Shown piece after piece: positions 11,326 through 37,931 of a stretch of DNA of 64,000 nucleotides (position 1 is its first letter; every line of letters begins with the position of its first letter). This DNA is from Trypanosoma brucei (taxonomy: Eukaryota): positions 1,408,001-1,472,000 of the forward strand of contig CP000070.1 in assembly GCA_000002445.1 (NCBI GenBank). Direction: 5' to 3'. The position numbers were made by a program, and so were the translations under genes. The notes under the pieces are model-generated. The model was not told where the DNA came from. It worked only from the letters and a program-made list of their open reading frames with translations, and made no database searches.

Positions 11326-12822
11326 ATGGGAGGAGGTTCATCCGTTGAAGACAAGCGCTACTCCCGGCTGTTCCAGGAGGGTCTCAAGGCGCTTCATGAG
11401 GGACGCTTTACATATGCTGAGATTTACTTTGATCAGGCCATTGAGAAACATGAGGGTTATCCATTCTGGCAGCGCCTTGACGAAATGGTAGAATGGGAAC
11501 GAAAGGGAAACACCGGTAAGCGAAAGGGAGAGGAGCAAAATGAAAAAGATCAGTGGGCGAAAGAAACAAAGCCTGAGACAGGTGGCGGTGAGGGAGCAGG
11601 AGAAGATGGCGCTGAAATGGATGATTTGGGAGGTGAATCCGATGACACTGGTGTTCTTGTGATTCCTCTCGATCAACGGGTATTTCACGTGTTGGAGTAC
11701 CTTCAGTTGCGCACCGACATTTCCGTCGCTTATTTGCTAGCTGAACGCTACGAAGAGGCACACGAGCACCTCCAATACGTCACGTCGCACACTCATGTGC
11801 TTTTGAAGTGTTTGCGCATTGCCCGGCAGAGTAATATGTCAGAGGAATCAGGCGGAGAAGGCGGTGACACGAATCCCCTTGAGCATGTTGGTGTAGTGGA
11901 GCGGCGGTTCCGTGCAGGTTTGATGGGCATGGAAGTGGAAGTGGAAGGTATCCTCGACGCCTTTGAACAATATCTTCGCCTGCACTGGTTCTCTGGAATT
12001 GCAAACACTGTTTACATCGCCTTTGAGCGGTTCAAGGGAGGGCAGGGTGATAAGAAGCGCAAGCGTGAGCTTGACGCCGTAGTTGTGACATGTGAAACGG
12101 CCAAGTTAGAACTTCACAAACTGGTGTCCCGCCGTGCTAAGAGCTTAACGAACAGTGTGTTGATTGAGTTCCTTGAGAAGCTCATTAATGATATGGACAG
12201 CAGCGCCTCGGACTCCGAGGATGATGGAAATGCAAACGGCGGCCGCAGTGGTGGTCCCGCCGCCAAGGGCAGAAGAAAGTCGGACAACCGCGAGGATGGC
12301 GACAAGGAAGAACTTGAGAACTTCCCATTCAGTGCACGACTTCAGATGCTTTACGAGCGTCGTCTGTTGTATCGGGGCATGCCCGCCCCCATGCAAGGTG
12401 CTGCCTTGCGTTACCTGCCTTGGATGGATGAAGATATCCGTCGTGTTGTTCCCGGTACAAACTACAACCTGGAGATTCAATGTGGTATGATTGATGATAG
12501 GCGTAAGAAGCAACTCCAAAAGAAATCTCTCAAGCACACAGTACAGAAGCGGTTTGACTTCAACGACAGGGTGCTATTCAACAAGAGTATGGATGAAGAA
12601 AATGCACTGCTGTTATTTCCATTACTTCTTGTTGAAGCTGATGTGCAATTAGAACTTGGTGCTGCCACGAAAGGCATTAAAGCGCTAGATATGGTCGAGA
12701 AATTGTCTACGCAATTATACGGCAGGCAGTCGCTTGAGCAACAGAGTCTCATGCGCCGTGTGTTGGAGACCCGTAAACGCGGTGGTGCTCTTTTCATGAT
12801 GTTTGATGACCAATTGAACTAA
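11326..12822 (+). CDS. hypothetical protein, predicted N-myristoylated (MGGGSS...), acidic low-complexity insert, possible single TPR-like motif near N-terminus
   Basis: ATG start. N-terminus MGGGSSV fits the M-G-x-x-x-S/T N-myristoyltransferase consensus. The stretch GLKALHEGRFTYAEIYFDQAIEKHEGYP is TPR-like. Acidic tracts are present (GGGEGAGEDGAEMDDLGGESDD; DSSASDSEDDGNANG). 1497 nt ORF. Confidence 0.6.
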   Translation: MGGGSSVEDKRYSRLFQEGLKALHEGRFTYAEIYFDQAIEKHEGYPFWQRLDEMVEWERKGNTGKRKGEEQNEKDQWAKETKPETGGGEGAGEDGAEMDDLGGESDDTGVLVIPLDQRVFHVLEYLQLRTDISVAYLLAERYEEAHEHLQYVTSHTHVLLKCLRIARQSNMSEESGGEGGDTNPLEHVGVVERRFRAGLMGMEVEVEGILDAFEQYLRLHWFSGIANTVYIAFERFKGGQGDKKRKRELDAVVVTCETAKLELHKLVSRRAKSLTNSVLIEFLEKLINDMDSSASDSEDDGNANGGRSGGPAAKGRRKSDNREDGDKEELENFPFSARLQMLYERRLLYRGMPAPMQGAALRYLPWMDEDIRRVVPGTNYNLEIQCGMIDDRRKKQLQKKSLKHTVQKRFDFNDRVLFNKSMDEENALLLFPLLLVEADVQLELGAATKGIKALDMVEKLSTQLYGRQSLEQQSLMRRVLETRKRGGALFMMFDDQLN

Positions 12823-13628
12823 ATGCAAAGGAAGCAAAGAAGAAAATAGGATGGGTGGATGTGAGAAAAGAAAAAAAGGAAAAAGAAATGGAAGCGTCAA
12901 GGGTTTAGAGTGTTTACGCTTTCTTCTATGTTTTTGTATGTGTGGGAAAGGGGGGGGAATAAGTAACAGAGGTGAAGAAACATACGCTACTGGTGCAATT
13001 TTTTTTTCTTTTTGTACACCAAAAAGAGGCGATAGCAGGAAGTACAGGGAAGAAAAGGGGGAAAAAGGCGAGACAAAACAAGATACCAAAGGAGAGATTG
13101 AACTAATGGAAAGGGAGAGAAAAGATGTTTATCCCCCCCACCCCAATTCGTTCATTTGATTGTTTCTTTTTATGTGTGCGCGTGTGTGTAAATATATATA
13201 TATATATATATTACAGGGGGCGGTAGGAGGGAAAGAAAAAGGCAAAACAAATGCAAAAGAAAAAGGGAATTAAAGGATTTGGGAGAAAAAGGAATAGGAG
13301 TAATAAAGAATAAAAGAAGTGGGAGCAAGTACAAAACAAAGCAAAGCAAAACACAAAAACAAAACAGGTGTAAAGGATAAAGCAAACAAACAACCAAATA
13401 AAAGACAATAAGTGACATGCAAGCGATGCGGTACAAATCAAATATGTGGGGGGTCCGCTGAATGGCTCTGTGGCTAACACGTTTGAGGAGCGGGCGGAAA
13501 TATTAACGGCAGGAGTAATTTTTTTAAAAAAAATGATTCGTATGTAAGTGAAAAAGTTATGAGAAGTAAACTGACAAATGTTTTTTGTCTGTGTTTTAAC
13601 GTTGTTGTGTACATTCATGTAAAGCGAA

Positions 13629-13675
13629 TATATATATATATATATGTGTGTGTGTGAGAGAGAGAGAGAGAGAGT
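13629..13675. repeat. compound microsatellite (AT)n(TG)n(AG)n
   Basis: atatatatatatatatgtgtgtgtgtgagagagagagagagag. Confidence 0.9.
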
Positions 13676-15043
13676 AAGTCAATGAGTGTTTTTCTGTCTG
13701 AAGGTAGGAAAATGATAATTTTTTTTCTCTTGTTAAAGCAACGTTTGTATGTCGTGTTTGCCTTTTTGTTAGCAATTTCTTTTCCTGTTGTCTTTTCCCC
13801 CCTTTACTTGCTATTTCCCTTAATATCTTTACTCGCTTTTGTTCATTCTAATTTCCCTTTTCTTTTTTTTTATGTATCTTTTATCTTTTCTGTTTTTTGA
13901 ATGTAACTCAGATATGCCACTGCTTCTGGTGGAAGTAACATAAAAGTGAACAACCGTTTTTGTTTTTTTTTGTTCTTAACATTCTCTCAGCGCCAAAAAC
14001 GCGAGGGAAGAAATACTACCAAAGAATGTGTGCAACTAAATTTGAAGTTTCTTTAAAAAAACAAAAATACAAAAAAACAAAAGAGAAAAGAGGGAAAAAA
14101 GAAAAATTATCGGAGGGAGTTTGCGGTCGCGAGTATTGTCACCCGTTTTCCTTCAGAGAAGTGTTTTAAGTGTAGGAATGCATGTGTGGGGGATTTTTTT
14201 TTTTTTTTTGTGAGGACGAGGAGCAAAGTTCACACTTAAATCAGAAGTGTAAAAGAAAAGGGAGAAAATAATGATAATGCTGATGATGATGATAATAAAA
14301 GAAAAGAGAAGAGGAGAGCGCAAACAAAAAGGAGGAAGAGACAAAGTATATAAATCAATAAATAAAAAGTTGAAGATATGAGGCTAAGAGGCAGAAAGCA
14401 ACATGCAGTAATGATTGTATATGCGCAGGAGATAAAAAGTGGTGCTGCCGCAGCCCTTTTTTTTTTTTCAAATTTAATCGTTTGTTCATCCGAGAGTGAA
14501 CAAATGTTTGAACGTATTTCCACCTGATGCCCCTCCCCCCCTCAACACACACACACACACCACCTAATTTCTTGCTTTTTTTTTTGAAACTATTTATTTA
14601 TTTTTTTACTCGGTTCTCTGTTCCTCATTCACCCTAGCCGTCTCATCTCTGCGCGGTACATACACGTATAAATGTAAATAATATATATATATATATATGT
14701 TTATTTATGCGTGTGTATTACGTTATATAATATTATATAACATTATCACATGATATGGTTATTATTGTTGTTGTTACTTATTATTATCATCGCCGTGGAC
14801 ATGCAATTTATGGTCCCTTTATTCTCACATTTTTCTCTCCGTCCCACCACCTGCGCATATATATATAAATATAAATAAATAAATATATATTTATTTATTT
14901 ATTTTCACCCTCCTTTCTTTTGGCGTATTGTTGATGCTGCCGCTGATTTTTATCTCTTTCATTGACTTGAACTGTTGTGTGCCCCTCCCCCTCCCCCTCC
15001 CCCGTACGCACCGCCTCAAAACAAAAAAATTTGTGCAGTGAAA

Positions 15044-15115
15044 AGAACTGAACTGAAATGAAATGAACTGAAATGAAATGAACTGAACTGAAATGAAATG
15101 AACTGAAATGAAAAA
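15044..15115. repeat. pentamer array (GAACT/GAAAT)n, about 14 units
   Basis: agaactgaactgaaatgaaatgaactgaaatgaaatgaactgaactgaaatgaaatgaactgaaatgaaa. Confidence 0.85.
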
Positions 15116-18100
15116 TGGAAAAAGAGAAGGAATATACAAATGAAAGTCGAGGAGGAGAATGAAATCAGTTAAATGTTTGGGACAATTTCTTATTTTTCCG
15201 TTTCGTTTAGTTCGTTCCGAGGCCTCATTTATGCGGCGTTACGTCCTTTTGTCTTCGTTTTGTTTTTGTTTCAATTTGATTTGTTGTGTGTTTTATTTCC
15301 CATCAATCGCGTTCTCGTCACCACCACTACAACCACCAGTTTTCTCTGGCGTGTTTTTTTTTCTTTCTTTCTCTCTTAATTTCCTTTTTCTTCTTTTTTT
15401 CTCTCTTTTTTTTTTCTTTTTGGGACGAAAGGACAAATACGCTACCACTTAACGTCGCTCACGATAGTGGACGCAATGGAATACGTGTATTTGATTTGTT
15501 TTTTTTGTTTTTTTCTCTTCACTTTTCTGTTCTCGGTGTTGTGTCAAACTTTTTTTCTTTTTTTTTACTTTTTTTAAATATATATATATATATATATTTA
15601 TATATGTTTATGTGTTTTGGTGACAGAAGCAAAGGTGTTTAAAAGAAGCAAGAGAGAGAGAGAGATTAAAAAAAAAAATGAATATTTGAGATATGTTGCC
15701 TTTTCATACACATTAATATTCATATGTGTATTATATTCTCCTTTTTCTTCTTTTTTTTTCCAACGCCTTTTCCCATTTCTTAACCGTTCTTGCATCTTAC
15801 AATACCTCTTGATATTACTTTGTTCATGCACTTACTCGCTTATTTTAACTTCTTTCATATTATTCACAATAACATTCCCTTTACTTTTCCCTTTGTTTTT
15901 TTTTCCTTCATCTTACTTTATCTCTTTTTTTTTCTTTTTATTTTCCGTTTCACTCCTCCTCTCTTTTCTCCAGTTCCGCATAACTTTCCATGCCCGTGTG
16001 GAAACCCTCGAAGGCAAGTCTGCGTGAGTGAGCTTGTGATATTATTTGTGATTTAAATAAATAAATAAATAAATATATTTAAAATTGATGTTTTGTAATG
16101 TTCTGCCCATTTGTTTTTTTGTATGTTTTTTTTTTCCATTTGGTTCAATAACTAAAAACACCAAAAAAAAATTTAATTATAATATAAATATATATATATA
16201 TATTAATATTTGTTGTGGCTGGGAACACATCCACAGCGGCACCAACACCAGCAACGGTTCCTGGGGGAAGGCTTTTTTTTTAAATGTTTTAAATATTTTA
16301 AATATTTTATTATTATTTTAAATGTCAAAACGAAAAAAAACCCAAAAAAGAGAGAATTTTAAAAAAAATGTATAATCAAAAAAGAACGAGAAAAGGATGG
16401 GAAAAAAGACGGAGGATAGAAAAAAAAATTAAAAAGAAAAAAAAAAGACACACTTACAAGAGGCTAACGGAAAGGCATAAAATATGTGTGAAGGATGTGA
16501 ATACCCGCCTTCTTACAGGAAAAAAAAGAAAGAAAGAAAGAAAAAATATTTCCTTCATCTTTTTTTTAAAAATATTATGTCGTGATGAAGGTTTCAATTT
16601 ATTTTATATCTTTTAGCTTTCTTTTTTTCTTTTTTTTTATCTTTTCAGTTCTATCTCCTCCGTTTTTTTTTTTTTGCCGTGTCGAGTTTGGTGTTGTTTT
16701 AAAGGTCGCGATCATTTATGTCTTTTTGTTTGTTTGTTTGTTTTCTATTTTTTTAATTTGTTTGTTTTCCTCCCAATTCACTGTTGCTTTTGCTCTTACT
16801 TTTCCTTTTTGTTTGGTCATTCTTTCTGTTTTTTCCCCCTTTCTTTTGTTATTGTTGATGGATGAGCGTACAAAATCTTTTTTTTTTATTCCGTGTTCAT
16901 ATCATTTTATTTTATTTTATTGCTTGTTCAATTTTTGTGTTTTCTTTTGTTTAGTTTTTTTTTTTTGCTTTTTATGATTTTTTTGTATGTTTCGTTTCAT
17001 GTTTTGTTGTGCATCATTTTTCCTTCTTTTTTTTGTGTTGTTATTACTCATTTTCTGTTTTTTTTTGTTAACAATAAAAAAAGAAAGAGAAAACAAATAA
17101 AAAAAACACAAAAAGTGGAGAAAGTGAAGGTGACATTTAATCGTGTGGACACGGAAAGAAAATAAAAAGAAGGCAAGCGAGAGAACAAACAAAGGGAGAA
17201 AACAACACCACGAAAATAATAATAATAATAATAATAATAAGTAATTTATAAATCAAAACCATCAACAACACTAAAAAGCAAACGAAACGAAACGAATTGA
17301 TGATGACGACGACAACACGCAACATAATATTAGAAAAAGAAGAGGATGGGAGGGGGGAGAGGGGAAAGAAATAACTAAAATAAACAAAAAAACAAAAAAG
17401 GGATTCAATGGAAGATTAAAAAAAAAAAAATAGAAATAAATGCAACAACACTCGAGAAATAAATAAAAAAAAAGAGGGAGGAGGAAAAAAAAAGGTTTTG
17501 CCTGAATGTGTATTTGGAAAGGGAAGGCTATTTATGAAGGGAATTATTATTATGTAGACTCGGCAATAAGTGAAAGTAATGGCTTTTTTTTCTTTTTCTT
17601 TTTTCTTTTTGATCATAACGCACGCTTTTCTCATCCTTTTCTTTTTCTTTCCTTCTCTTTTTTTTATTTTGTTGTTTTGGTTTCTGAGCTGTAGTTTTCG
17701 CACATGTATGATTAATTTAACTGAGTGAAGAAAGGGAAAGTGAACGTAATATATTAAATGCATATACAGCACATGTGCATATTCACATATATATATATAT
17801 ATATATATATATTTCTAACACATGTGCGTGTTTCGGTGGAAGGAATTAATATATAAAGAGGAAAGGAATAACATTATATGATACAGTGTGAAATAAAACT
17901 AATGAAGTGATATGAAAATTTTCTTTTTTCCTTTTTGTTGTTGGCGCTGAAGCAATGATAAAAAAGAAAAGGGGTTGAAAATAATGGGATTTTGAGATGA
18001 ACCAAACCCAGAGGGATGAGGTAACTTTCGTTAAAAGAAAGAGAGAAGGGAAGATATTATGTGTATGAATGAAACTCTTTTCGTTTATTTGTATGCGCGG

Positions 18101-20285
18101 CAACGGTGTGGCGGGATGAGAAATTAAAATTAGTGAATCAGGAGAGGATATTATGCATCACAGGGGAATACAAGCATATATAATATATATATATATATAT
18201 AAACATATAGATAGCAATTTTCATTTTATATTTTAAAGAAAAGAGAAGTGGAAAATAAAGGAGCTTTAAGAAGAGATTTCTTTCCCCCTTTAAACCCCTC
18301 TTTCCCTCTCTTTCTGTCCTCCATTCCCCGACCCCCCGTGGCGTAGGGTTCTTTTTCTTTTTTTCTTTTTTTCTTTTTTTGCACTGACTGTCATTATTAC
18401 CATTACCATTATTATTATTATTATTGTTATTTTAATGTTTTCATTATTACCAAAAAAAAAAAACAACAAATTCTCCTCACCCGCCCCTCTAGCCGGCCCT
18501 TCCACTCTCATTTTTCTTTTTCTTTTTTGTTTTTTTCTTTTTGTATCCCTGCGGAGCAAAATCAGAGGGTCACAAAAGAAAAATACCCGGAGCCACTTAT
18601 ATGCACGTATGCATTTTTTAATTAAAAAATATATATATGTATATATGTATTGGTGTATCAAGTGCGTATATGTATGTATTTATTTCTCTTAATCGTGTTT
18701 CATTATAAGAGGATAAACAGCCAAATAAACAAAAGAAAAGGAAAGAAAAGAAAAAAAAGAAAAGCAAATGCGCATCATATATGTATGTAAAAAAAACAAA
18801 TAGATAAATATATGTGTGATGTGTTTCAGGGCAAGGGTCCTGCGGATTGAAAGTGTTTTTCGTTGTTTCTTTACTATTAATATTATTAATTTTCTTTACT
18901 TTTTTTTCTTTTTTGATCCCTTTTCTTTTTCTTTTTTTCTTTTATTTTCCTCCTTCATTCGATTTGCTTCTTTTTTTTTTAAAAAAAAACTAATGCGCAC
19001 TGCAGTGAGACAGCGATTGGTGGCGATACGTGACTTATACAAATATGTGATGATATGAAACGAAATGAAAGAGAAAAAAAAGGGTGAAAAGGAGAATGGG
19101 AAAAATATTTAAAAAAACCAAAACAGCAAAAAAAATTGAAAAAAAAAGAAAAAATGAGGCAATATTGTCATTATTACTGTTATTATTATTATTGTTATCG
19201 ACGTTTTGGTTACATGTGCAGGGCCTTATTGCAATGAGTTGTGAGACTTTCGATTCCCTTTTTCCCTTTCCCCTTTTGGCTTTTTTTTTTCCTCCCCCCC
19301 TCTCCACCTTTCTCTCTAGTTTTCCTTCCTTACAGACCTCCCTCACAGTTTTTCAGCTTCCCAATTTTACTCTTTCGTTTTTGGTTTGAGCTTTCTTCGT
19401 AATTTGTTTGTTTGTTTATTTCTTTGTTTGTGTTTCGGTTGGATGGGGGAAGGTGGGAAGAACAACAAAAATTAAAAGAAGGGATTGAAAAGAAAGCAAA
19501 CAAACCGATCGAAAGAGAAGAAACTTCAAACACGGAGAAAATAGAGAAGGCGAAAAGAAATAGTTTCGTAGAGTTTTGTTTTTGCGTCGCACCTCACGCA
19601 CGAACTTGTGAGTGTGTATCACCCGTCTACTGAACCGTGTGTTTGGACAACGTTTGCTCGGCACTTCGAAGCGAAGAAACGCTAACAAGCAAATAAACAA
19701 ACAATGAAAAAACATCATCAAGTAATCGTTCGGTTTTTTTTTTAGCGTTTGCCTATTTCGTCCTCCTCCCCCCCCCCTGTGCATCGTCACCTGTAACGGA
19801 TGGATGTGTAATGCTTATGCGAAGATGATCCTTCCCTCTTTTGACTTATATTACTGTGTTTGATTCTACTCTCAACTTACTACTGTCTTGTTTTTCCTAT
19901 TCAATTCTTCTTTATTTGCCTTTCCTCTTGATCGTTTAATCCTTTATAGTGTTTTCTCTCTCTCTCTCTCTATTCCTTTCCTTTTCTGTTGTCTGTTTGC
20001 TTGCGCGAAGGAAGTCACAGGTTTGTGTTTCATTGTAGGACCTCACGTATAATACTGAAAGGACTCAAAAAAAAAAAATTGTTTCCATAAGCAACAGAAG
20101 CGCAACAAAGTTAAGGAAAGTGCCTTCTGACATTTTGTTGTTGCACATCGCCTACGCATATCGTTTTGTTTATCCAAGAAAATACGCTAATTTAGTCGAC
20201 ATCCTTTCTACTGCAAGCTGTGAGGCAAAATCCAGTGATTTTCCTCTTGTTTGGTGTTGACGTTTGCGAAGGGAAGTAGCGTGTT

Positions 20286-21836
20286 ATGTTGCGCGAAAGG
20301 AGTTGCTCATGCAGCTGCACTTCAGAGGCATGCGGGCGCCTGCATTCGTGTTCCTGCACATTCAGCAGTGACAGCTGTGGTGAGAGGAGGCCAAATAGAA
20401 TCCGACAGAGAGCTTTGGATGTATCTGCTTATATGTCCTCGCAACCTTTGTCAATGTCTTCACGGCATAATACAGATTGTAGTTGCTCATGTTCCTGCGA
20501 TTGCAGCTGTAGCTCCTCTTGCAGCTGTAGTACTGGTTGTGACTCTTCTCGCAGTTGCAGTTGCAGTTGCAGTTGCAGTTGTTGTCGTTCTGCATACTCC
20601 TCTGCATGCCGTACGTGCGGAAGGGGGAATGATGACCAATCCGATGCGGAACGTGCACCGCATTATCCCAGCTGCCAGTACAGTGAAGATTTTTTGTCTG
20701 TTGCCCCACTTCTAATTCGGTTTGGTGCCTTCCCACCGCCCCGACCCCCGGAGGCTCCGCCTGTGCGTATGTTTCCAACGCCATCAGGTCTCCTCCCACC
20801 ACCAGAGCCGCTGAGAGCGTCAACAACTACTACAGAAACAACTCAGTCACTGGTGTCCACTCGTAGCGCAGAGGGGTCTGACATCATCACCACCGTTTCA
20901 TCGGGCGAACTGCGGGCGGCAGCGGAGGTGACTTCGATGCACCGGTCAATTGGGATGCAAACAGAAATTGAGAGTCGCGAACGAGGAGCGTCACCGATAC
21001 GAAAAGCAAAAACTGATGTGGGCACAAATACGGAAATGACGTTGGAGTTACTGGACCAGCAGCAGGCCACGCTTCAGCAACAAACGATGATACTGCACCA
21101 GCACATGGAGCGGTGTGTCATTCTTGAAAGGCAGCGATATGAGGTGGATTGTGAACATGCGGCGTTCTGCGAGGATGTGAGACGTTGGCAAGAGTTGCAA
21201 AGGGAGACTGCGGTCGCGCAGTTTATTGTGGCGGTGGAAAAGAGCTACAGCGATGTGAAAGTGCAAGAGGAAGAGGGACGCGCGCTCCTCAAAACTTTCA
21301 TGGACTTTTCAAGCCAGTCAGTGATTTCACTCCAGCAGAATTGCATTGATCAAGTGCAACATCAGATGACATTTGCTCATCAACAGCGAACGATTCTTGA
21401 AGGAAAACATTACGACGTTATTGTTGATGAATTGTGGCATCGACTTGCTGTGGTGGAAATGGAGGAGGAATCACGTCGGAATCTCCATGTCCTATATGAT
21501 ACCATTTCTGACATGCGGCGCGCGCGGGAGCGAATGACAGCCGCTGAGGCAGAGGTTGAACATGAGAAGGAAATTACGGCGTCGGTGCGGAGGGATTTGC
21601 AAGACGTGCTGCAGCGTGAGAAGGAATTGCAGCTGAAATATTTGTATATCCTACGGGTGCCCACAACAACCATTATTTCCCGTGATTACAAAAACAACGA
21701 TGGCCCTGTGGGAGGTCATGATGAGTGGGACGATGACATGCCAGTGCATGTGCGGTTTTCCCGTGCGCACCGAGCGGCAGTAGAAGCTGTTAGCGCAAAG
21801 CGTCGTTGCTCCCTTGAACTTAAATGCTTTCTGTAA
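20286..21836 (+). CDS. hypothetical protein: Cys/Ser-repeat N-terminal region followed by coiled-coil C-terminal half (start codon uncertain)
   Basis: ATG at 20286. The N-terminal roughly 110 aa is encoded by a TGCAGY hexamer microsatellite (CSCSCSCDCSCSSSCSCSTGCDSSRSCSCSCSCSCC). That stretch is open in all three overlapping frames, so its coding status is uncertain. From about 20900 onward the translation is a convincing heptad-rich coiled-coil (QQQATLQQQTMILHQHMERC...; EEESRRNLHVLYDTISDMRRARERMTAAEAEVEHEKEI...). Alternative in-frame ATGs lie at about 20437, 20770, 20938 and 20959. Confidence 0.45.
   Translation: MLRERSCSCSCTSEACGRLHSCSCTFSSDSCGERRPNRIRQRALDVSAYMSSQPLSMSSRHNTDCSCSCSCDCSCSSSCSCSTGCDSSRSCSCSCSCSCCRSAYSSACRTCGRGNDDQSDAERAPHYPSCQYSEDFLSVAPLLIRFGAFPPPRPPEAPPVRMFPTPSGLLPPPEPLRASTTTTETTQSLVSTRSAEGSDIITTVSSGELRAAAEVTSMHRSIGMQTEIESRERGASPIRKAKTDVGTNTEMTLELLDQQQATLQQQTMILHQHMERCVILERQRYEVDCEHAAFCEDVRRWQELQRETAVAQFIVAVEKSYSDVKVQEEEGRALLKTFMDFSSQSVISLQQNCIDQVQHQMTFAHQQRTILEGKHYDVIVDELWHRLAVVEMEEESRRNLHVLYDTISDMRRARERMTAAEAEVEHEKEITASVRRDLQDVLQREKELQLKYLYILRVPTTTIISRDYKNNDGPVGGHDEWDDDMPVHVRFSRAHRAAVEAVSAKRRCSLELKCFL
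20480..20590 (+). repeat. TGCAGY hexamer microsatellite (perfect gcagtt x6 at 20551-20588) inside the 5' part of ORF 20286..21836
   Basis: tgcagctgtagctcctcttgcagctgtagtactggttgtgactcttctcgcagttgcagttgcagttgcagttgcagttgttgtcg. Produces open reading frames in three frames (CSCSCS / AVAVAV / antisense CNCNCN). Confidence 0.85.
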
Positions 21837-29480: not shown

Positions 29481-31280
29481 ATGAGCTTATTTTCTTTTAC
29501 GCCAACTGGAGGTTCCAACATGCCACGCACCACATCCACGGAGGAAAACACCACGTCGGATTGTCAGACAAGTTTGAATCATCCGCCTCCCAAAATGACC
29601 TTTACGGATATGCTAAACACCAAAATCCAAAACAGCAATAAACACAGCTCAGAAGATAAAAACAGCAACTGCAGCACAGTTGATGAGGTGTTGGATTGTT
29701 GCGATTACGGTTATGGATGTGTTCATGGAAATGCACTGGTGGAAGAGGGCGCGGAAGAGATGCGACGCCGCTACTTTTTGGAAATGCAGCGCAACCTCCT
29801 TGATGATGTGGATACGGACAATGAGGAACAAATAGACAGCAAGATCGTTAGCACTTGCCGAAGCACCACATCTGTCAGTGCACGTGATTCCTCAGAAGTT
29901 CTCGGCCCCATACCTTTACCACATGACGGAGGAGATGTGTTGTCTTTCAACCCATTTGCCTCCAGTGTTACCTATAGCCCCTTGTCCGATGAAAACGGTT
30001 GCGTGGAAAATTTATCTCCGAACCCCAGCAGCCGCACTCCACTGAGCAGCTCAACATCCGGGGCGCAGCTTCCCAATGGAAGTTTTTCCTCTATCTCTCC
30101 CTCGCTCTCCACTCATCCGACTGGGCGATTAGCCACGCGAAAAAATGTATACGTGAGTGAACTTCCGACCCATTGGAATACGGAGAAACTCCGCAGCGTC
30201 TGCGCCACCTTCGGTAATATTGTCAGTGCTAAAGTTATGCACGACAGCAACACAAATGAGTCGCGGGGTTATGGCTTCGTCATGTTTGAGACGGATGAAC
30301 AGGCAGCTCTATGTGTGCGCACACTGAACAGTTGCAAAGTGGATGGACGGATGTTGTCATGCCGCTTCGCTCACGAGAAAGCCATGCCGTCGTTTGCCCA
30401 CTCTGATCGTATCCCATGGCAGGAATTCGGTCGCTCCCCCAATTCCACAACACCGTCCCTCTCAAAAGACAAACTGACGGATGTAAAAACCCAACCCGAC
30501 CAACAGCAGGGAGGTAACTCACTTCCCAATATGGAGTTACTGAAAGGCGCCCATGTTGCATGTTTCGGAGACCGCAGTCGCCCAATGGTGCAACGGAGCC
30601 ACAACATATTCATTCAAGGTCTGCCACTGCAGTGGAACACGGATAAATTACGCAGCCTTTGCGGCACTTTTGGAAAAGTAGAGCTGGCTAAAGTTGTTCG
30701 GGATGCCACGACAAGCCTATCGTGCGGCCATGGTTTTGTTCTGTTTGAGCGAGAGGAGGCTGCAGCTCTTTGCGTTGAGCGTTTAAATGGTGCGACCGTT
30801 GAGGGTCGGACACTTACATGCCGTTTCGCGAGAGATAAACGAGGTCCGGGAGTTGCAACTGGAGCGGCGCCTTCACCACCTGTACGGCCGTCTGGAAATG
30901 ACTTTTTGAAAAACACAGCACCGTTACTTGTCCGAATGGTAGACGCACAGGAAAGTCCATCAATGTTACTTCAGTCGGCAGTTGGCTCTAACAAGTGGTC
31001 AACCGTTACAGTTCCACAAAATTGTCACACGGCTGTTTATTCGCAATCACCGTTACTTGTTGCGGGCGGTGTCTCACCATTACTCGGCCTCTCACCTGTT
31101 GTATCTCCTATGGTACCATCTGGCGTCATGACAGAAATGACGGAACCACCGCATGGCATGCAAAGTTTTGGGTGTAATATTGCGGGATTGCAATGCCTTA
31201 TTGCCGTACCGTATCATCAAACTCGAATTGTATCGGGTTTTAGCAACGGCGACGGCGGGACATTTGCTGCACTTACGTAA
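29481..31280 (+). CDS. RNA-binding protein with two RRM domains, 599 aa
   Basis: ATG start. RRM1 lies at about 30141-30385 (KNVYVSELPTHWNTEKLRSVCATFGNIVSAKVMHDSNTNESRGYGFVMFETDEQAALCVRTLNSCKVDGRMLSCRFAHEK). RRM2 lies at about 30598-30840 (HNIFIQGLPLQWNTDKLRSLCGTFGKVELAKVVRDATTSLSCGHGFVLFEREEAAALCVERLNGATVEGRTLTCRFARDK). Both have RNP2-like (V/I-Y/F-V/I) and RNP1-like (GYGFVMF / GHGFVLF) elements. Confidence 0.8.
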   Translation: MSLFSFTPTGGSNMPRTTSTEENTTSDCQTSLNHPPPKMTFTDMLNTKIQNSNKHSSEDKNSNCSTVDEVLDCCDYGYGCVHGNALVEEGAEEMRRRYFLEMQRNLLDDVDTDNEEQIDSKIVSTCRSTTSVSARDSSEVLGPIPLPHDGGDVLSFNPFASSVTYSPLSDENGCVENLSPNPSSRTPLSSSTSGAQLPNGSFSSISPSLSTHPTGRLATRKNVYVSELPTHWNTEKLRSVCATFGNIVSAKVMHDSNTNESRGYGFVMFETDEQAALCVRTLNSCKVDGRMLSCRFAHEKAMPSFAHSDRIPWQEFGRSPNSTTPSLSKDKLTDVKTQPDQQQGGNSLPNMELLKGAHVACFGDRSRPMVQRSHNIFIQGLPLQWNTDKLRSLCGTFGKVELAKVVRDATTSLSCGHGFVLFEREEAAALCVERLNGATVEGRTLTCRFARDKRGPGVATGAAPSPPVRPSGNDFLKNTAPLLVRMVDAQESPSMLLQSAVGSNKWSTVTVPQNCHTAVYSQSPLLVAGGVSPLLGLSPVVSPMVPSGVMTEMTEPPHGMQSFGCNIAGLQCLIAVPYHQTRIVSGFSNGDGGTFAALT

Positions 31281-32261
31281 AGCCACCGTTCCTTTTGATT
31301 CCTTTTATTATATTATATTTCGTTTTGTTTTTGTTTTTCACATCAGTGCCTTTGCTTACTATCTTCGGTATTTTCCTCTCAGCTCCGCCTCTTTTTTTCT
31401 TTTTTTCCTTTTTTTCCCCGTTTCTGTTTCTGTTTCGGCTCTTTCTTTTATGTTTAAAAAAAAAAAGACCATTTGCTCTTAATAATGACAATTGTTGTTA
31501 TTATTTGTCTTTATTTCCGTTGTATCGCCTTTTGTATTCCTGTGTTTATGACAACCGAAACCGTTTCAGCGGAAGGGTGAGATAAAAAAAAAGGGAGGGG
31601 AAATATGCGGGATCCCTCAATAGAAAACAGAAAAAAGGAAAGGAAAGGAAAGGAAGCAGATAAGAATGTGGAAGATTAAGGAAGGAGGGGGGGGAGATAT
31701 AATGGAGGTGTGGGGGAACAAATGGAAGGGTTTTCTTTACTTTTAAAAAACAAAAGAAAAGAAAACAAAAAAAGATGGAAAAGGGACAAAAAAAGAAAAA
31801 AAGAAATACTGCTCGAGAGGAAGAGGAGAAGAACTAACACACACACACACACACACATACATATATACATACATACATATATATATATATATAGATTACA
31901 CGGAAAAAAAAAGAAGAAAGGAGCGGCATATTTGGTTTTTATCAATCAGTTGCCGTGTGCTGTGGATTAATAAGCGGGTGCGATCGCGTGTGTCGGAAAA
32001 AAAATGACAATGCATTAGTCCTTCCGTTGCAATATATAAATATGTATATATGTATATATGTATATGTGTATATTTATGTATATATATACATATTTATTTG
32101 GATGTTTTACATATTTGTATGTTCCGCTTATATAAATAAATATATATATATACACATATTTAATTATTTTATTTTATTGTTTGTTCATTGACTTACCTGC
32201 GCGCACATGTCCCCGAGTGTCCGTTTGCCTGTCTCCATTTACATGTGTACTTTTATGTGTT

Positions 32262-32263
<2 letters not shown>

Positions 32264-32304
<41 letters not shown>

Positions 32305-32344
32305 TTGTGTGTATGTGTATGTGTATGTGTGTGTGTGTGTGTAT
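32264..32344. repeat. compound microsatellite (AT)n then (TGTGTA)n(TG)n
   Basis: atatatatatatatatatatatatatatatatgtatatttgtgtgtatgtgtatgtgtatgtgtgtgtgtgtgtgt. Confidence 0.9.
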
Positions 32345-35300
32345 GGCTTCCCTTCTTTCTTTTATTATTGTTATTGTCAAATGTGCAATCTGGTACCTAT
32401 CTTCTTCCTGTTTTTATTCCCCGATGGGTTGCCGTTGTTTTCTTTTTTCTTTTTCTTTTTTTTACTCCACTTGACATTATTTTATTTATTATTTTATGTC
32501 CTGCTCCTTTTTTTGTTTGTTTTCCTCTTATTTCTCCTCCATCCCTTCTTTTTTTTATTTTACTGCATTTTCTTTTCTAATTTATTTTATTATATTAAAA
32601 ATACTTTCGCCATGTCCCTCTATTTCGTATATTACCCGACTCTTTCTTTCATGTGGTTGTATCGCAATATATATTGCTATTGCTATTACTATTCCTCCTA
32701 CTATTGTTATTGTTATCTTTTATTATTTTCAAAAAAAGAATTTTTCTGTTCAATTTCTAGTTTATGTATCACTTTTTATTTGTTTGTTTATCGCCTTTGC
32801 GTTAAATAATAAATTTTATGAAAACAAAGAAGAAAGGGAAACAATCCGAAACAAAGTCTCGTTCCACACATTTTGATTCTTTTTTTTAATTGTTCCTTCT
32901 TTTTTTTTTTTTAGATCTTCCTGTTTCAAACCCTTCATTTTCCTTTTTGTTTTATTTTTATTCTCACTTCTTTACTGCAACTTTTATTTATTTATTTTGT
33001 CCTCATTTTTTTTTTTATTTCCCCCCCTCTTCCTCACTAATTTCTTCTCACCACAAAATACACGTCAGTAATCGTTGTGTTTGAAATCATATACTTAAAA
33101 TATATATATATATATATATTTTTTTTTCTCTCCATATATTTCTCCTTCATTCAACTTTTTTTTGTCCGCTTACCTTTTTTATCCCTTCCTTTCTTCTTTA
33201 AAAAAAATAATAATTAATTATTTTAATTTAAATAACTTTTTAAAGGGGTAGAAACCTTCGCAGTGGTCCTTTTTTTTGTTTTTAATTTTTATTTCTTTCC
33301 ACCTGAATTGTCTATTTTCCTTTTTGAGTTTAACGTTTATTATTATCATTATTATTTCCTTCTGTTTTTCATTGTTATTATTTTTTTTAATTTTTATTTA
33401 CTTCGTAACAAAATAAATAAAAATCAGAGAGGAAAAAAAGGAAGTCCTCCCTCTTTCTTTTCTTTTCTTTTTTTTCCCCCCTCTTCCCCCTTCAACTCAT
33501 CACTCTGCTTTCTCTTCAACAACCACATAAGTAGAAATTTTTTTTAAAATAAAAAGCTGAAGGATCAAAGTTTATATATTCCTTTCGGTTTTATTTTTCC
33601 TATTTTTCCAATTTGTATTGATTATTAAATTCTTAAATTATTACTGTTATTATTTGTTGTTATTATTATTATTTTATTTGTTATTTCTCCTTATTTATTG
33701 TGTTATTTTAAAATTTTCTTCATAATTTTTGTGTTTTTCATATTCCTTCCTTCCTTCCATTCTTTCTTTCTTTCTTTAATACCTTTATTTGTAATCATAT
33801 TATTATATTATTATTATTTTGATCAACTCCATTATTTGTTTACTGCGGCTACCACACTTTCTGCTAAAAGTTTATTACAATAATAGTAATAAATGTTGTT
33901 ATTTTTATTTGTTGTTGTGATTTTACGTCTCTTGGTTCAAGAGGAGCTTAAATTTTTTTTGTCGCATGATTGTGAACAAATATATGCAATTGATATAAAT
34001 AAATATATATTTTTTTACATGTATGTATTTATATATGCATTTCCTGATGTGCTTATATCATTTATTCTATTGTCATGATTTCATCACTATTAAAATTGTG
34101 TGCCTGTGCCTTTCTCTCTCTCTGTCTGTCTGTGTGTTATGGTTATGGTTAGGGGGAGGCACCTTTCTTTCTTTCTTATCTTTTTTTTTTTAACCTCCCC
34201 CTTTTTAAAATTAATTAATTAATTAATTAATTTTTATTTAGTTATTTATATGTCTTTTTCTTCTCTTCCACCACCTGCTCCTCCTCCTCTATTTTTTTTA
34301 ATAAAAATATATATATTTACTATCTTTTTTTATTAATTGTTATTCTTCCATTAAATATATAAATAAATATTTATGTATCTCTTTTTTATGTATTAAATTT
34401 TCTTTACTTCCATTTTCGTTCCAGTCAGTTAAACTTGTTCCCGTTTATTTAACTAAATCCCCCCCCCCCACAAAAAAAAAAGAAAAAGAGGGAATATACA
34501 ACATTAATATATAAATGCGTGCGATATAGGTGGATCTTATTAGCCTTTTGTTTTTTTTTAAAAAATCCGTCTCTTGTATTTCATTACTTTTGTTGGTATA
34601 TATTTTAACCAATTGAGGACACAACAGCTATGATAATGATGGTAATAATAAAAATATGTTGTTGTTACGATGATAATAATAATAATAATAAATATTATCA
34701 TTATTATTATTGCTATTGTGTCATATCATATCAGGGTTTCATTTATTTATAAATAAATATATATTGTTATTATATGATCGTGTGTGTTTGTGTTTTGACG
34801 TGGCTGTAGAGAAGGGGAGATTTATATTCAACTTTTTATTTGTTTTACATTTTCTTCGTTTTGTATGTATTTAAAAGAAGTAAAAATAAATAAATTAATA
34901 TATATATATATATATATATTAAAAATCTTAAGTGTCCTTCTGAGCTAAAGCTGTTGCGTGTTTATAAGAAAATGAAAAGAAAAAAAAGAAAAACGAAAGG
35001 GATAAATAGATAAAGGATCGGTGTAATAATTTTTGTTATTTGTTTATTTATATTTCCTCCCTCTTCCCTTTTATCTGTTTTTTTTCCGCATTTTCTTCGG
35101 GATTCGCTTCATCATTTATTTTGTTTATATATTTCTTTTCTTTTTTCTTTATCTTTTTCATTCGTAATTGTTATATTTATTCCCTTTTTTCCTTTTCTAT
35201 ATTTTCACCCCACTTTTATTATGATGTACATTTATATGCGTATCAAATCTGTCGATTTTATTTTATTTTATTGTTTTACTATTTTCTTTTTCTTTTGTTT

Positions 35301-37895
35301 CTTTTTGTTTTTTATTTTTATTTTATTATTATTATCATCATGTTGTGATGACTGTTTTTCTGTCCTCTCCTTTCAATTTACCATTTCTGTCTTTTTTTTA
35401 TATGTTGTTCCTATTATTTATGTCTTTTTTAAAAAAAAAAATAATTTTGGAGGAGGTCGTTGTTATTATTGTTAATACTACTTTTATTATTGTTGGTAAC
35501 TATGATAATGAGGATTGTATTATTATTATTATTATCGTTGTTATTTTCCAGCTACAATTGGGGTTGAAACGTGAGAGATGGAAAAAGAAACAATAGAAAC
35601 AAAAGAGTCAAAACGAAAAAGAGTAGAAAAGAAAAAAAGAAAAGAAATAATAATAATAATAATACAATATTGATGACAATAAAATATATAATGAATAGAA
35701 AATAAGGGAGATATGAGGCTAAAAACCCGTAGAAAAGTCACTTGGAAATATAAAACAATGAATATTTTCCAGTATGTTAAGCGAACCCGTGAACAAAATG
35801 AAAGTCAAATATCGGTAGCTATTTAAAAAGGGGGAAAAACAACAACGGCCGGAACAAATACGTAAAGAAGAGTTTATCAATCACACTTTGCACGTGTAGT
35901 GAAACTCGTTCAAATTGATTAATAGACTAATTAATTGATTAAATAATTAAAAAATCATTCAAATCATTCTTACCAACGCATCTTCCCACATTTATATAAC
36001 TATATATTTTTCAGTATTGATGTATTTTTTTCTTTTATATTTCGTAACTGTCTTTTTTTTTCCGCTTTTTTTAAAAAGAAAGAAAAATGCCTACTATGCT
36101 GCTTCGTATTTTATATTAGGCTTTTTTGACCATTTCAACCCCGACATTTACCATCAATAAAGATGGTAATAATGAAATATATATATATACATATATAACT
36201 ACGGGAGGCCTTTTATTAAATTACTATTATCGTTTTTGTTTTTGTATTGTAGACCTTCTGCCTTGAAGAAAACAAGGCATGGGTGTAGAGAGGGGAAAAA
36301 AAACTAGATGTACGAAGATAAAAAGCTTTCTCATTTACTCTCTTCTTTTTTGTGTGTTTTATTAACGTCTGTTCTTAATTTTTTTTTCTTCTTATTTCTT
36401 AATTTTATTTGTTTATATTTTACTGATGTTGTGGGAAATGCGGAAAGGAGCTACTCACTTTTTTTCTTCCACTGAAGGGGAAAAGGAAGAAAATTTAACA
36501 TATATATTTTTCATAACTAAATGATAAAAGGGATTCGAGCCGGAGAAATATAAAAAAAAATGGGGAAAGAAGAAAAGAGAGAGATATGGAGTTAAATAGG
36601 TTTGTTACGTCTGAAAAACCTTTTGTGTATAAGTAAATAATATTAATATATATATTAATATTATATTATATATATGTTTGGTATTTAAATTTCTTATAAG
36701 GGGAAAACGATTATACGTAATGCACATATAAGTATTTACAATTATATATATTTACATATTCATACGCCTATACATTCACGTATACACACTTTTTTGATCA
36801 CTTATATTTATATTCACTTATATTAATTTGATTAGCATTGGTATATATGTATGACTGTACTTGTAGACCTCTGTTTGATACATTTCATATGGAAGAAAGG
36901 AGAAGAAGGGGGAGGGAAATGAAAAAAAGAAAATGAAAGAGAAAATGGCTCTCTACTGGGATAAAAACAGGAAAATAAAATTAGGGGGGAGAAGGTGCTT
37001 GCAAAGGGAAAACGACTCTTTTTTTGTTTTGTTTTTTTATTTTTATTTTTTGTTATTTATTTGTACGCGTCTGTTTCCGGCCTAAGTTGCGCACGGGGAG
37101 TTCGGGGGGCTGTTTATTATTATTATTATTATTTTCCCGGTTTCCACCGCTTTTTGTCGTTAGTGTTTATGCTTTTGTGTTTCGGGGGAGCAACGCACAA
37201 CTGTCACTTTGTCTTCGACGTGTCCTTTTGTGCATGCTTTAAAAAAATTTTTTATTTACTTGTTGTGAGCCTTGGAGGGAGGGAAGTTGCTTCACTGTTC
37301 CTTTTCTATTATTTTTTCCTTATTTTTATTTTGGTCTCTCATCATTTTTAATGGGGGTTTTGTTTTAACTGACTGTTGTTATTTTTTTTCCCTAACTGTC
37401 TTCAATGTTTGAGCGACTGTTATAAATCTTGACTTTTGATTATTTTTATCTTTTATTATTTTATTATTTTGTTTGTTTTCCTTTTTTTTTAAAAAAACCT
37501 TTTCTCTTTCTGCGTGCGTGAGTATGTGTCTGTTTCCAGACTGACCACTTTCAAAAAGTGATTTTTTTGTACACGCAATTTGGTAATGCGATCTGGCATC
37601 AAAATGATGATAAAAATGATCTGCTTTTTAATCCCGTTGTTTCTTCTGTGTCTACCGTTTCATCAATAGTTTTTCTTTCCTTTCCACTTTCTTCTTTCTT
37701 TCTTTTTTTTCCTATTCATGAAGGGCCTCCGTGTAACCCTTTGCCTTTTTGTGATTAATACAAGCACATAATAAAACAAGCTGAAGAAAAAGGGTAGAAG
37801 GAAAGGAGAGGGACGAAAAGGAAACTGGGAGGAGAGGAGAGGAGGGGGGAGAAAGATTTTTCTCACAGCCTCCAACGACTACGACAGACTGTATT

Positions 37896-37917
37896 TCTGC
37901 ACTTGATTTCTTTTCAG
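37896..37917 (+). promoter_or_regulatory. candidate trans-splice acceptor (polypyrimidine tract + AG) 14 nt upstream of ATG 37932
   Basis: ctgcacttgatttcttttcag|gtgaggaagagcggATG. A larger polypyrimidine tract at 37670-37750 is an alternative. Confidence 0.3.
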
Positions 37918-37931
37918 GTGAGGAAGAGCGG

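What the first reader, a model, noticed from the sequence alone, without database searches (positions are those of the whole stretch)
12823..20285. About 7.5 kb gene desert of alternating strand-asymmetric purine/pyrimidine blocks inside a unidirectional gene cluster
Typical inter-CDS distances in this window are 1-2 kb. This gap is 7.5 kb and a second one (31281-37931) is 6.6 kb. Both consist of 0.2-0.6 kb blocks that flip between T-rich and A-rich on the same strand. The blocks are punctuated by compound microsatellites, C-rich runs (14980-15010 ccctccccctccccctcccc) and a pentamer array (15044-15115). The homopurine/homopyrimidine mirror structure can form triplex (H-DNA). The regions could be very long UTRs, or internal transcription termination/re-initiation zones of the polycistron (sites that in trypanosomes carry H2A.Z/H3.V/base J). 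They could also hide small RNA genes. Two islands of normal-complexity sequence sit inside the first desert, at 13440-13520 and 19560-19700.
Basis: partly seen in the sequence, partly recalled or inferred. Interest (0 to 1): 0.5.

Follow-up and report, generated by a model that had tools for sequence, protein, structure and literature searches.

The report
Very long CARP3 mRNA 3′ untranslated region
The 7.5 kb "gene desert" is the already annotated 7,051-nt 3′ untranslated region of the Trypanosoma brucei CARP3 mRNA plus the short processing spacer before the next gene, and its alternating A-rich and U-rich blocks match a published class of long regulatory trypanosome UTRs, so it is real but known.

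Summary
The interval 12823-20285 is a 7,463-bp ORF-free stretch with 33% GC. It is made of alternating A-rich purine and U-rich pyrimidine blocks, with (AT)n arrays between them. About 20% of it lies in pure purine or pyrimidine tracts of at least 12 nt, against 2% in dinucleotide shuffles.

The window is T. brucei TREU927 chromosome 7, 1,408,001-1,472,000. The upstream gene is CARP3 (Tb927.7.5340). The published 3′-UTR re-annotation, informed by nanopore and SL/poly(A) reads (PMC11405848), places its 3′-UTR at window 12823-19873. Two fragments of that UTR were positive hits in the paper's reporter screen.

The second desert is the DRBD12 3′-UTR, at window 31281-37595. Its mRNA is about 8.4 kb on Northern blots (PMC9380746).

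The block pattern matches the published poly-purine/poly-pyrimidine UTR code and the "P5-UTR" class. The 22 internal polypyrimidine tracts are the kind of cryptic splice signal that DRBD18 is proposed to mask.

I found no tRNA, no Rfam family, no conserved ORF and no structured island. I found nothing that supports the termination/re-initiation reading or the hidden-RNA reading. The feature is already known and of low interest.

The parts
11326..12822 (+). CARP3 (cAMP response protein 3, Tb927.7.5340) coding sequence, 498 aa, with the N-terminal MGGGS myristoylation motif
   Evidence: 100% identical to a T. b. equiperdum protein. Orthologues are named 'sodium stibogluconate resistance protein'. 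CARP3 = Tb927.7.5340, 498 aa.
12823..19873 (+). CARP3 3'-UTR, 7,051 nt. It holds alternating A-rich purine and U-rich pyrimidine blocks, 9 (AT)n arrays and 22 internal PPT-like tracts.
   Evidence: PMC11405848 Supplementary Data 1 gives the Tb927.7.5340 UTR as Tb927_07_v5.1:1420823-1427873. The offset of 1,408,000 is fixed by four stop codons.
12843..13484 (+). Reporter-screen (MPRA) positive regulatory fragment 1 (chr7 1420843-1421484). It is 67% purine.
   Evidence: fully contained in the UTR, enriched under blasticidin selection, log2FC 5.17, p 0.028, FDR 0.052.
17609..18944 (+). MPRA positive regulatory fragment 2 (chr7 1425609-1426944)
   Evidence: log2FC 5.47, p 0.028, FDR 0.052.
19874..20010 (+). 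Inter-mRNA spacer. It holds the functional polypyrimidine tract (19952-19987) and the predicted trans-splice acceptor AG (20009-20010) for Tb927.7.5350.
   Evidence: The tract starts 79 nt after the annotated poly(A) site, and the AG lies 22 nt after the tract. This matches the published spacing rule of 80-140 nt and 10-40 nt. The acceptor position is inferred.
20011..20285 (+). Predicted 5'-UTR of Tb927.7.5350 (about 275 nt)
   Evidence: Inferred from the PPT/AG position. Not verified.
20286..21836 (+). Downstream CDS (by gene order Tb927.7.5350), 516 aa, with a Cys/Ser-rich N-terminus
   Evidence: A T. congolense orthologue lies on the same annotated contig as the CARP3 orthologue.
14982..15003 (+). 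(CCCCTC)n homopyrimidine mirror repeat, one of 7 H-DNA-capable tracts in the UTR
15039..15113 (+). Pentamer array (TGAAA/TGAAC), 15 copies
29481..31280 (+). DRBD12 (Tb927.7.5380) CDS, two RRM domains
31281..37595 (+). It holds 8 UAUUUUUU RBP10 motifs.
   Evidence: The UTR is chr7 1439281-1445595. Northern blots show about 8.4 kb. I counted 8 motifs, matching the 8 given in PMC5568443.

Best explanation
Positions 12823-19873 are transcribed as the 3'-UTR of the CARP3 mRNA, inside a long polycistronic Pol II unit. Positions 19874-20285 are the usual spacer plus the 5'-UTR of the next gene.

The last polypyrimidine tract (19952-19987) directs trans-splicing of the downstream mRNA and the coupled polyadenylation of CARP3 at about 19873.

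The 22 upstream tracts that look like splice signals are normally not used. The likely reason is that proteins such as DRBD18 bind them in the nucleus.

In the cytoplasm the UTR acts as a post-transcriptional control region. A-rich purine tracts promote translation. U-rich pyrimidine tracts and (AT)n palindromes can base-pair with them and mask them, in a way that depends on stage or temperature. This is the published pPuT/pPyT 'unmasking' or 'zipper' model for P5-UTRs.

Shown: the identity as a UTR and the positive reporter activity of two fragments. Inferred by analogy: DRBD18 masking and duplex masking for this particular UTR.
For: 1. Gene identity.

2. Published UTR coordinates map exactly onto the window. 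Four UTR_Start values equal my stop codon + 1 after subtracting 1,408,000. That re-annotation was informed by nanopore direct-RNA reads and by reads filtered for SL or poly(A) sequence.

3. Two native-orientation fragments inside the UTR were enriched in the positive arm of the reporter screen.

4. The second desert has the same composition and is a proven 3'-UTR, with an 8.4 kb Northern band.

5. Short inter-CDS regions carry 0-2 PPT-like tracts. This one carries 23, and the last sits where the processing rule predicts.

6. There are 44 A-rich and 44 U-rich tracts of at least 9 nt and 9 (AT)n arrays. This matches the P5-UTR definition and the description of long UTRs rich in both pPuT and pPyT.

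7. In the predicted MFE fold, 72% of purine-tract bases are paired, and 65% of those pair with pyrimidine-tract bases in 9-20 bp helices. Mean z is about -1.8 in the CARP3 UTR, -4.2 in the DRBD12 UTR and -0.5 in CDS.

8. CARP3 mRNA rises (logFC 1.68, FDR 2.5e-6) in DRBD18-depleted procyclics. DRBD12 mRNA also rises there (logFC 3.95).

9. A long CARP3 downstream gap recurs elsewhere: about 3.8 kb in T. vivax and 3.2 kb in T. conorhini, where called neighbours are at most 0.76 kb apart, and 1.7 kb in T. melophagium.
Against: - I found no Northern blot or read-level data for CARP3 itself. The UTR end rests on one curated annotation.
- The MPRA FDR is 0.052, which is borderline.
- The folding excess over shuffles is modest for CARP3, and one window has z +1.2. 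Some excess is expected whenever A-rich and U-rich tracts co-occur.
- No primary sequence is conserved between species.
- The UTR differs by about 0.8 kb and many indels between TREU927 and T. b. equiperdum. Much of it may therefore be unconstrained.
- RBP10 pull-down enrichment of CARP3 mRNA is only 1.8-2.0-fold.
- CARP3 is not named among the published P5-UTR or DRBD18-processing examples.
Confidence: 0.9

Rival explanations
1. Mosaic of transcripts. CARP3 mainly uses a proximal poly(A) site, and internal polypyrimidine tracts generate separate SL-capped, polyadenylated non-coding RNAs (lncRNAs) from the distal part.
For: There are 22 internal PPT-like tracts, many followed by AG within 60 nt. 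DRBD18 depletion produces such 3'-UTR-derived RNAs and shortened mRNAs for more than 200 genes. CARP3 mRNA rises on DRBD18 depletion. Many T. brucei lncRNAs are annotated in inter-CDS DNA. The chr7 entries of one lncRNA list could not be read through.
Against: The curated annotation, informed by nanopore and SL/poly(A) reads, gives one UTR ending at 19873. The analogous DRBD12 UTR is full length in normal cells. In the cited work the alternative products appear after DRBD18 loss and are rarer than the long versions in normal cells.
Confidence: 0.07
2. Internal Pol II termination/re-initiation zone of the polycistron, marked by H2A.Z, H3.V or base J.
For: It is a long, low-GC, ORF-free interval inside a unidirectional cluster. 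H-DNA-capable mirror repeats are present.
Against: A single annotated mRNA spans it. The twin region is covered by an 8.4 kb mRNA. No tRNA or other small RNA gene is present. The composition is that of ordinary T. brucei UTRs, only denser and longer. UTR fragments act as 3'-UTRs in a reporter.
Confidence: 0.02
3. Largely neutral expansion. The interval is a UTR, but most of its length comes from microsatellite slippage and low-complexity drift and carries no specific function.
For: There are 89 tandem-repeat rows in 7.5 kb. No sequence is conserved between species. Against T. b. equiperdum the UTR interior is 94% identical, with many indels and an indel of about 0.8 kb, while the segment holding the CDS and the start of the UTR is 98.6% identical.
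Against: Two fragments are active in the MPRA. A longer-than-neighbour gap after CARP3 recurs in four species. Published genome-wide correlations link tract dosage to translation and to thermo-regulation.
Confidence: 0.25
4. Hidden small RNA genes or small protein-coding ORFs in the two normal-complexity islands.
For: The islands at 13440-13520 and 19560-19700 have GC 0.45-0.51.
Against: There are no Rfam or tRNA hits. Folding z-scores run from -0.2 to +1.5. The islands have no copy elsewhere in the window and no conservation by blastn or tblastx. The longest ORF is 136 aa and of low complexity.
Confidence: 0.03

Closest known systems
T. brucei RBP10 3'-UTR (7.3-8.5 kb)
   Same: It is an extremely long 3'-UTR of a regulatory gene. 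It is dense in A-rich and U-rich tracts, has many internal polypyrimidine tracts, and has several independent positive fragments in reporter assays.
   Different: RBP10's UTR has been dissected experimentally, and its DRBD18-dependent processing has been shown on Northern blots. For CARP3 only the annotation, two MPRA hits and a DRBD18-RNAi abundance change are available.
DRBD12 (Tb927.7.5380) 3'-UTR, the second desert in this window
   Same: It has the same architecture, lies in the same polycistron and is 6.3 kb long. Its mRNA also rises on DRBD18 depletion.
   Different: - It is more U-rich, with purine fraction 0.43 against 0.50.
- It holds 8 RBP10 motifs against 2.
- It is strongly RBP10-bound (7-fold against about 1.9-fold).
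- Its one fragment listed in the readable (positive, native-orientation) MPRA sheet had zero reads there.
- Its full-length mRNA is verified by Northern blot.
P5-UTRs / the pPuT-pPyT cis-regulatory code (Trenaman et al. 2024; Bravo Ruiz et al. 2026 preprint)
   Same: [quoted passage not shown]
   Different: The class is partly defined by thermo-responsive and AGO1-dependent behaviour. That has not been shown for CARP3, which is not named in those papers' main texts.

Membership tests
Trypanosome mRNA 3'-UTR | Lies between a stop codon and the mapped poly(A) site of the same mRNA | tested here: met
   Published UTR coordinates 1420823-1427873 map to window 12823-19873, with the offset fixed by four genes. 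I did not examine read-level data.
Trypanosome mRNA 3'-UTR | The poly(A) site is followed within about 80-140 nt by a polypyrimidine tract, with an AG 10-40 nt further on, for the next gene | tested here: met
   The tract 19952-19987 starts 79 nt after 19873. The AG is at 20009, 22 nt after the tract. The rule is quoted.
P5-UTR / pPuT-pPyT regulatory UTR | [quoted passage not shown] | tested here: met
   The UTR is 7,051 nt, with 44 + 44 tracts of at least 9 nt. Pure tracts of at least 12 nt cover 19.9%, against 2% in shuffles and 8.7% in short inter-CDS DNA. I used my own tract definition, not the papers' FIMO motifs.
P5-UTR / pPuT-pPyT regulatory UTR | Palindromic tracts are enriched | tested here: met
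   There are 9 (AT)n arrays with n of at least 5, against 0.02 expected. They are predicted as hairpins or as long-range AT duplexes.
P5-UTR / pPuT-pPyT regulatory UTR | Confers regulation on a reporter | tested here: met
   From the literature only: two fragments with log2FC 5.2 and 5.5 and FDR 0.052.
P5-UTR / pPuT-pPyT regulatory UTR | Temperature-responsive, AGO1-dependent expression | not testable with these tools
   CARP3 is not mentioned in the preprint's main text. Its supplements were not available.
DRBD18-protected long 3'-UTR | Shortened mRNA isoforms and 3'-UTR-derived RNAs appear on DRBD18 depletion | tested here: inconclusive
   Only an abundance change is known, logFC +1.68 in procyclics. 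No isoform data were found for CARP3.
Internal Pol II termination/initiation site | Transcript discontinuity: no mRNA spans the site | tested here: not met
   The annotated CARP3 mRNA spans desert 1. An 8.4 kb DRBD12 mRNA spans desert 2.
Internal Pol II termination/initiation site | H2A.Z/H4K10ac or H3.V/base J enrichment | not testable with these tools
   No chromatin data were accessible.
snoRNA/tRNA/small RNA gene cluster | Match to a known RNA family, or a stable conserved structure | tested here: not met
H-DNA (intramolecular triplex) forming sequence | Homopurine-homopyrimidine mirror repeat with arms of at least 10 nt and a short spacer | tested here: met
   There are 7 such repeats in the CARP3 UTR, 3 in the DRBD12 UTR and 0 in 10.3 kb of short inter-CDS DNA. 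Whether a triplex actually forms cannot be tested here.

The most novel reading that the evidence does not exclude
The CARP3 3'-UTR may work as a temperature- or stage-sensing RNA 'zipper'. It has equal numbers (44 and 44) of A-rich and U-rich tracts, and DRBD18 depletion changes the mRNA's abundance. Such a switch could set the dose of CARP3, and so the output of the flagellar-tip adenylate-cyclase complex, as the parasite moves between the 37 °C mammal and the 27 °C tsetse fly. That would link the UTR code directly to social motility and salivary-gland colonisation. A variant of this reading is that internal polypyrimidine tracts release functional lncRNAs under some conditions.
Probability: 0.15. 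Interest if true: 0.5.

Novelty: already known. Interest (0 to 1): 0.15.

Why it matters
In trypanosomes almost all gene control is post-transcriptional, so multi-kilobase 3'-UTRs are where regulation takes place. This locus is a clear example. It has two UTRs of over 6 kb within 25 kb, and both belong to regulators: the adenylate-cyclase partner CARP3 and the RNA-binding protein DRBD12.

For a genome scan the practical lesson is this. In kinetoplastids, low-GC, ORF-free intervals with alternating A-rich and U-rich blocks should first be read as long 3'-UTRs, not as transcription boundaries or gene deserts.

Nothing here changes current understanding. The CARP3 UTR has not been dissected individually, which leaves a modest experimental opportunity.

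Tried and rejected
- **Rfam.** A scan of the whole window at gathering scores gave 0 hits. An E-value scan of the desert gave only sub-threshold miRNA-like hits on (AT)n or (GT)n hairpins. Both were rejected.
- **tRNA scan.** It found none.
- **ORF listing down to 40 aa.** It gave only low-complexity ORFs of at most 136 aa.
- **Folding of the two islands on both strands.** None folded better than shuffles.
- **Repeat search of desert 1 against the rest of the window.** No dispersed repeat was found.
- **Cross-species comparison.** blastn and tblastx against the CARP3 downstream gaps of T. vivax, T. theileri, T. melophagium, T. conorhini and T. rangeli gave only short, non-collinear, low-complexity matches.
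- **T. vivax gap.** At first I took its 7.7 kb gap as a conserved length. tblastn then showed two uncalled genes inside it, so the true gap is about 3.8 kb.
- **T. theileri gap.** Its 3.45 kb gap is mostly N and was discarded.
- **T. congolense.** The locus could not be fetched because the protein is not on record with a contig.
- **Plasmid collection search with island 2.** No match, as expected.
- **Supplementary tables.** The DRBD18 paper, the Guegan lncRNA paper and the 2025 machine-learning paper had none held as text.
- **CARP3 mRNA size.** No Northern or other direct measurement was found.

Full report
**What is in the sequence**

The window carries 15 long ORFs, all on the + strand. 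Between the stop codon at 12822 and the next ATG ORF at 20286 lie 7,463 bp with no ORF longer than 136 aa. All ORFs in that stretch are of low complexity. A second gap of 6,651 bp follows the ORF that ends at 31280. The other eleven inter-CDS gaps are 378-1,774 bp.

GC drops to 0.33 and 0.28 in the two deserts. In 100-nt windows the purine fraction swings between 0.15 and 0.85.

Smoothing resolves 26 blocks of 62-462 nt that alternate between two types:
- A-rich purine blocks, with A at 0.37-0.63.
- U-rich pyrimidine blocks, with T at 0.32-0.68.

These blocks cover 56% of the interval.

Pure purine or pyrimidine tracts of at least 12 nt cover 19.9% of the first desert. The figure is 2% in dinucleotide shuffles, 8.7% in the pooled short inter-CDS regions and 0.7% in CDS. 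It is an intensified, much longer version of what the short inter-CDS regions of this window also show.

**Where the window comes from**

The ORF at 11326-12822 is 100% identical to a Trypanosoma brucei equiperdum chromosome 7 protein. It is CARP3, cAMP response protein 3, Tb927.7.5340. CARP3 is a 498-aa N-myristoylated protein that regulates adenylate cyclases at the flagellar tip.

The two-RRM ORF at 29481-31280 is DRBD12, Tb927.7.5380.

Supplementary Data 1 of Trenaman et al. 2024 (PMC11405848) lists 3'-UTR coordinates on Tb927_07_v5.1. Subtracting 1,408,000 places the UTR starts of four genes exactly one base after my four stop codons. The genes are Tb927.7.5320.5340.5370 and .5380. The window is therefore TREU927 chr7 1,408,001-1,472,000.

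**What the deserts are**

In that table the CARP3 3'-UTR is 1420823-1427873, which is window 12823-19873 (7,051 nt). The DRBD12 3'-UTR is 1439281-1445595, which is window 31281-37595 (6,315 nt). The authors' re-annotation was informed by nanopore direct-RNA reads and by reads filtered for spliced-leader or poly(A) sequence. They give the genome-wide 3'-UTR average as 622 nt and the median as 388 nt. Both UTRs are therefore extreme, but they are annotated.

For DRBD12 there is independent proof. Its mRNA is about 8.4 kb on Northern blots, and the authors note the low-complexity centre of its 3'-UTR. Mugo and Clayton list a manually set UTR of about 6,278 nt with 8 RBP10 motifs. I count exactly 8 UAUUUUUU motifs in 31281-37595.

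**The 3' end fits the processing rule**

I scanned for PPT-like tracts, defined as at least 20 nt, at most 10% purine and at least 50% T. Each short inter-CDS region has 0-2 of them, usually one. The CARP3 inter-CDS has 23.

The last tract (19952-19987) begins 79 nt after the annotated poly(A) site and is followed by an AG 22 nt later. This matches the published spacing of 80-140 nt and 10-40 nt. The remaining 412 bp of the 'desert' are therefore the spacer plus a predicted 5'-UTR of about 275 nt for the next gene. That last assignment is inferred.

The 22 internal tracts fit a problem described by Bishola Tshitenge and Clayton. Long 3'-UTRs are full of potential splice signals, and DRBD18 appears to mask them. 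Its depletion shortens RBP10, DRBD12 and more than 200 other mRNAs.

In a re-analysis of DRBD18 RNAi in procyclic forms, CARP3 mRNA rises with logFC 1.68 (FDR 2.5e-6) and DRBD12 mRNA with logFC 3.95. This is consistent with the model. It does not prove altered processing of CARP3.

**How the blocks probably work**

Trenaman et al. report three relevant results:
- A-rich poly-purine tracts raise translation in a dose- and density-dependent way.
- Long UTRs rich in both purine and pyrimidine tracts are over-represented among mRNAs that are translated more in bloodstream forms.
- They propose that U-rich tracts may mask A-rich tracts by base pairing.

[quoted passage not shown] It reports AGO1-dependent thermo-regulation of these UTRs.

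The CARP3 UTR fits that description in several ways:
- It has 44 A-rich and 44 U-rich tracts of at least 9 nt and 9 (AT)n arrays.
- Two native-orientation fragments, window 12843-13484 and 17609-18944, were positive hits in the reporter screen, with log2FC 5.2 and 5.5 and FDR 0.052.
- In a span-limited MFE fold, 72% of purine-tract bases are paired. Of those, 65% pair with pyrimidine-tract bases, in many 9-20 bp helices.

Folding z-scores against dinucleotide shuffles average about -1.8 for the CARP3 UTR, -4.2 for the DRBD12 UTR and -0.5 for CDS controls. This folding evidence is weak. Some excess stability is expected from co-occurring A-rich and U-rich tracts, and nothing shows that the duplexes form in vivo.

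**Alternative readings**

- No tRNA gene is present, and no Rfam family reaches its gathering score.
- The permissive Rfam scan returns only (AT)n or (GT)n hairpins resembling miRNA precursors, at 23-34 bits against cut-offs of 55-100.
- The two 'normal-complexity islands' fold no better than shuffles on either strand.
- The islands have no second copy in the window.
- They have no counterpart in other species.
- Seven perfect homopurine or homopyrimidine mirror repeats make H-DNA physically possible. Nothing links them to a DNA-level function.
- Termination/re-initiation is contradicted by mRNAs that span both deserts. Chromatin marks could not be examined.

**Comparative picture**

Across species the gap after CARP3 is:

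| Species | Gap after CARP3 | Note |
|---|---|---|
| T. vivax | about 3.8 kb | The apparent 7.7 kb contains two uncalled genes |
| T. conorhini | 3.2 kb | Called neighbouring gaps are at most 0.76 kb |
| T. melophagium | 1.7 kb | |
| T. theileri | not usable | The gap is mostly N |

These gaps also show alternating R and Y blocks but share no sequence with T. brucei.

Against T. b. equiperdum the interval is 6,637 bp. About 0.8 kb is missing, and identity is 94% in the UTR interior against 98.6% over the segment that holds the CDS and the start of the UTR. The trait that persists is 'long and tract-rich', not any particular sequence.

**Verdict**

The finding is accurate as an observation. It is explained by published work: two annotated, exceptionally long, tract-rich 3'-UTRs. 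I found no support for the transcription-boundary or hidden-RNA readings.

Open points remain:
- Direct measurement of the CARP3 mRNA size.
- Any wild-type use of the internal polypyrimidine tracts.
- Whether the purine/pyrimidine 'zipper' controls CARP3 dosage during transmission.

Noticed in passing
window 42534-48086 and 49113-54622: A two-gene unit is tandemly duplicated. The ORFs are 553 and 540 aa with identical N-terminal halves, followed by 906-aa ORFs that differ at only a few residues. The inter-CDS regions of the two copies are also of nearly the same length.
   Followed up: no
window 24263-27706: The 1,147-aa ORF (by gene order Tb927.7.5370) begins with about nine perfect tandem copies of a 38-aa unit (GSPVGSYVSSGEKASNLNSAQLSGANSKPPSNRK...). 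This creates a spurious 302-aa antisense ORF at 24323-25231.
   Followed up: no
L001 (T. vivax) 11480-19184: The 7.7 kb 'gap' after the CARP3 orthologue is an annotation artefact. tblastn finds uncalled orthologues of Tb927.7.5350 (ORF 15288-17153) and of the HlyIII-family gene (17807-18121). The true gap is about 3.8 kb.
   Followed up: yes
L007 (T. b. equiperdum) 11498-18134 against window 12823-20285: The CARP3 inter-CDS is 6,637 bp in T. b. equiperdum and 7,463 bp here. Window positions of about 16134-16940 have no counterpart. UTR interior identity is about 94%, with many indels. This could be real length polymorphism or assembly collapse of low-complexity DNA.
   Followed up: partly
window 12823-20285 against all short inter-CDS regions: Short inter-CDS regions contain 0-2 PPT-like tracts (usually one). 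The CARP3 inter-CDS contains 23, and only the last sits at the annotated processing site.
   Followed up: yes
window 12823-19873: The numbers of A-rich purine and U-rich pyrimidine tracts of at least 9 nt are exactly balanced, 44 each, and the overall purine fraction is 0.50. The DRBD12 UTR is skewed to pyrimidine, with 27 against 50.
   Followed up: partly
window 20286-20700: The N-terminal 110 aa or so of the downstream protein (by gene order Tb927.7.5350) are Cys/Ser repeats (CSCSCS...). The only clear orthologue outside the T. brucei group that the search returned was from T. congolense, at 36% identity.
   Followed up: no
L003 (T. theileri) 11600-15051; L006 (T. rangeli) 11564-13653: The CARP3 downstream regions of these assemblies contain 2,509 and 745 N. 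This suggests that such low-complexity UTRs are hard to assemble, so their gap lengths are unreliable.
   Followed up: partly
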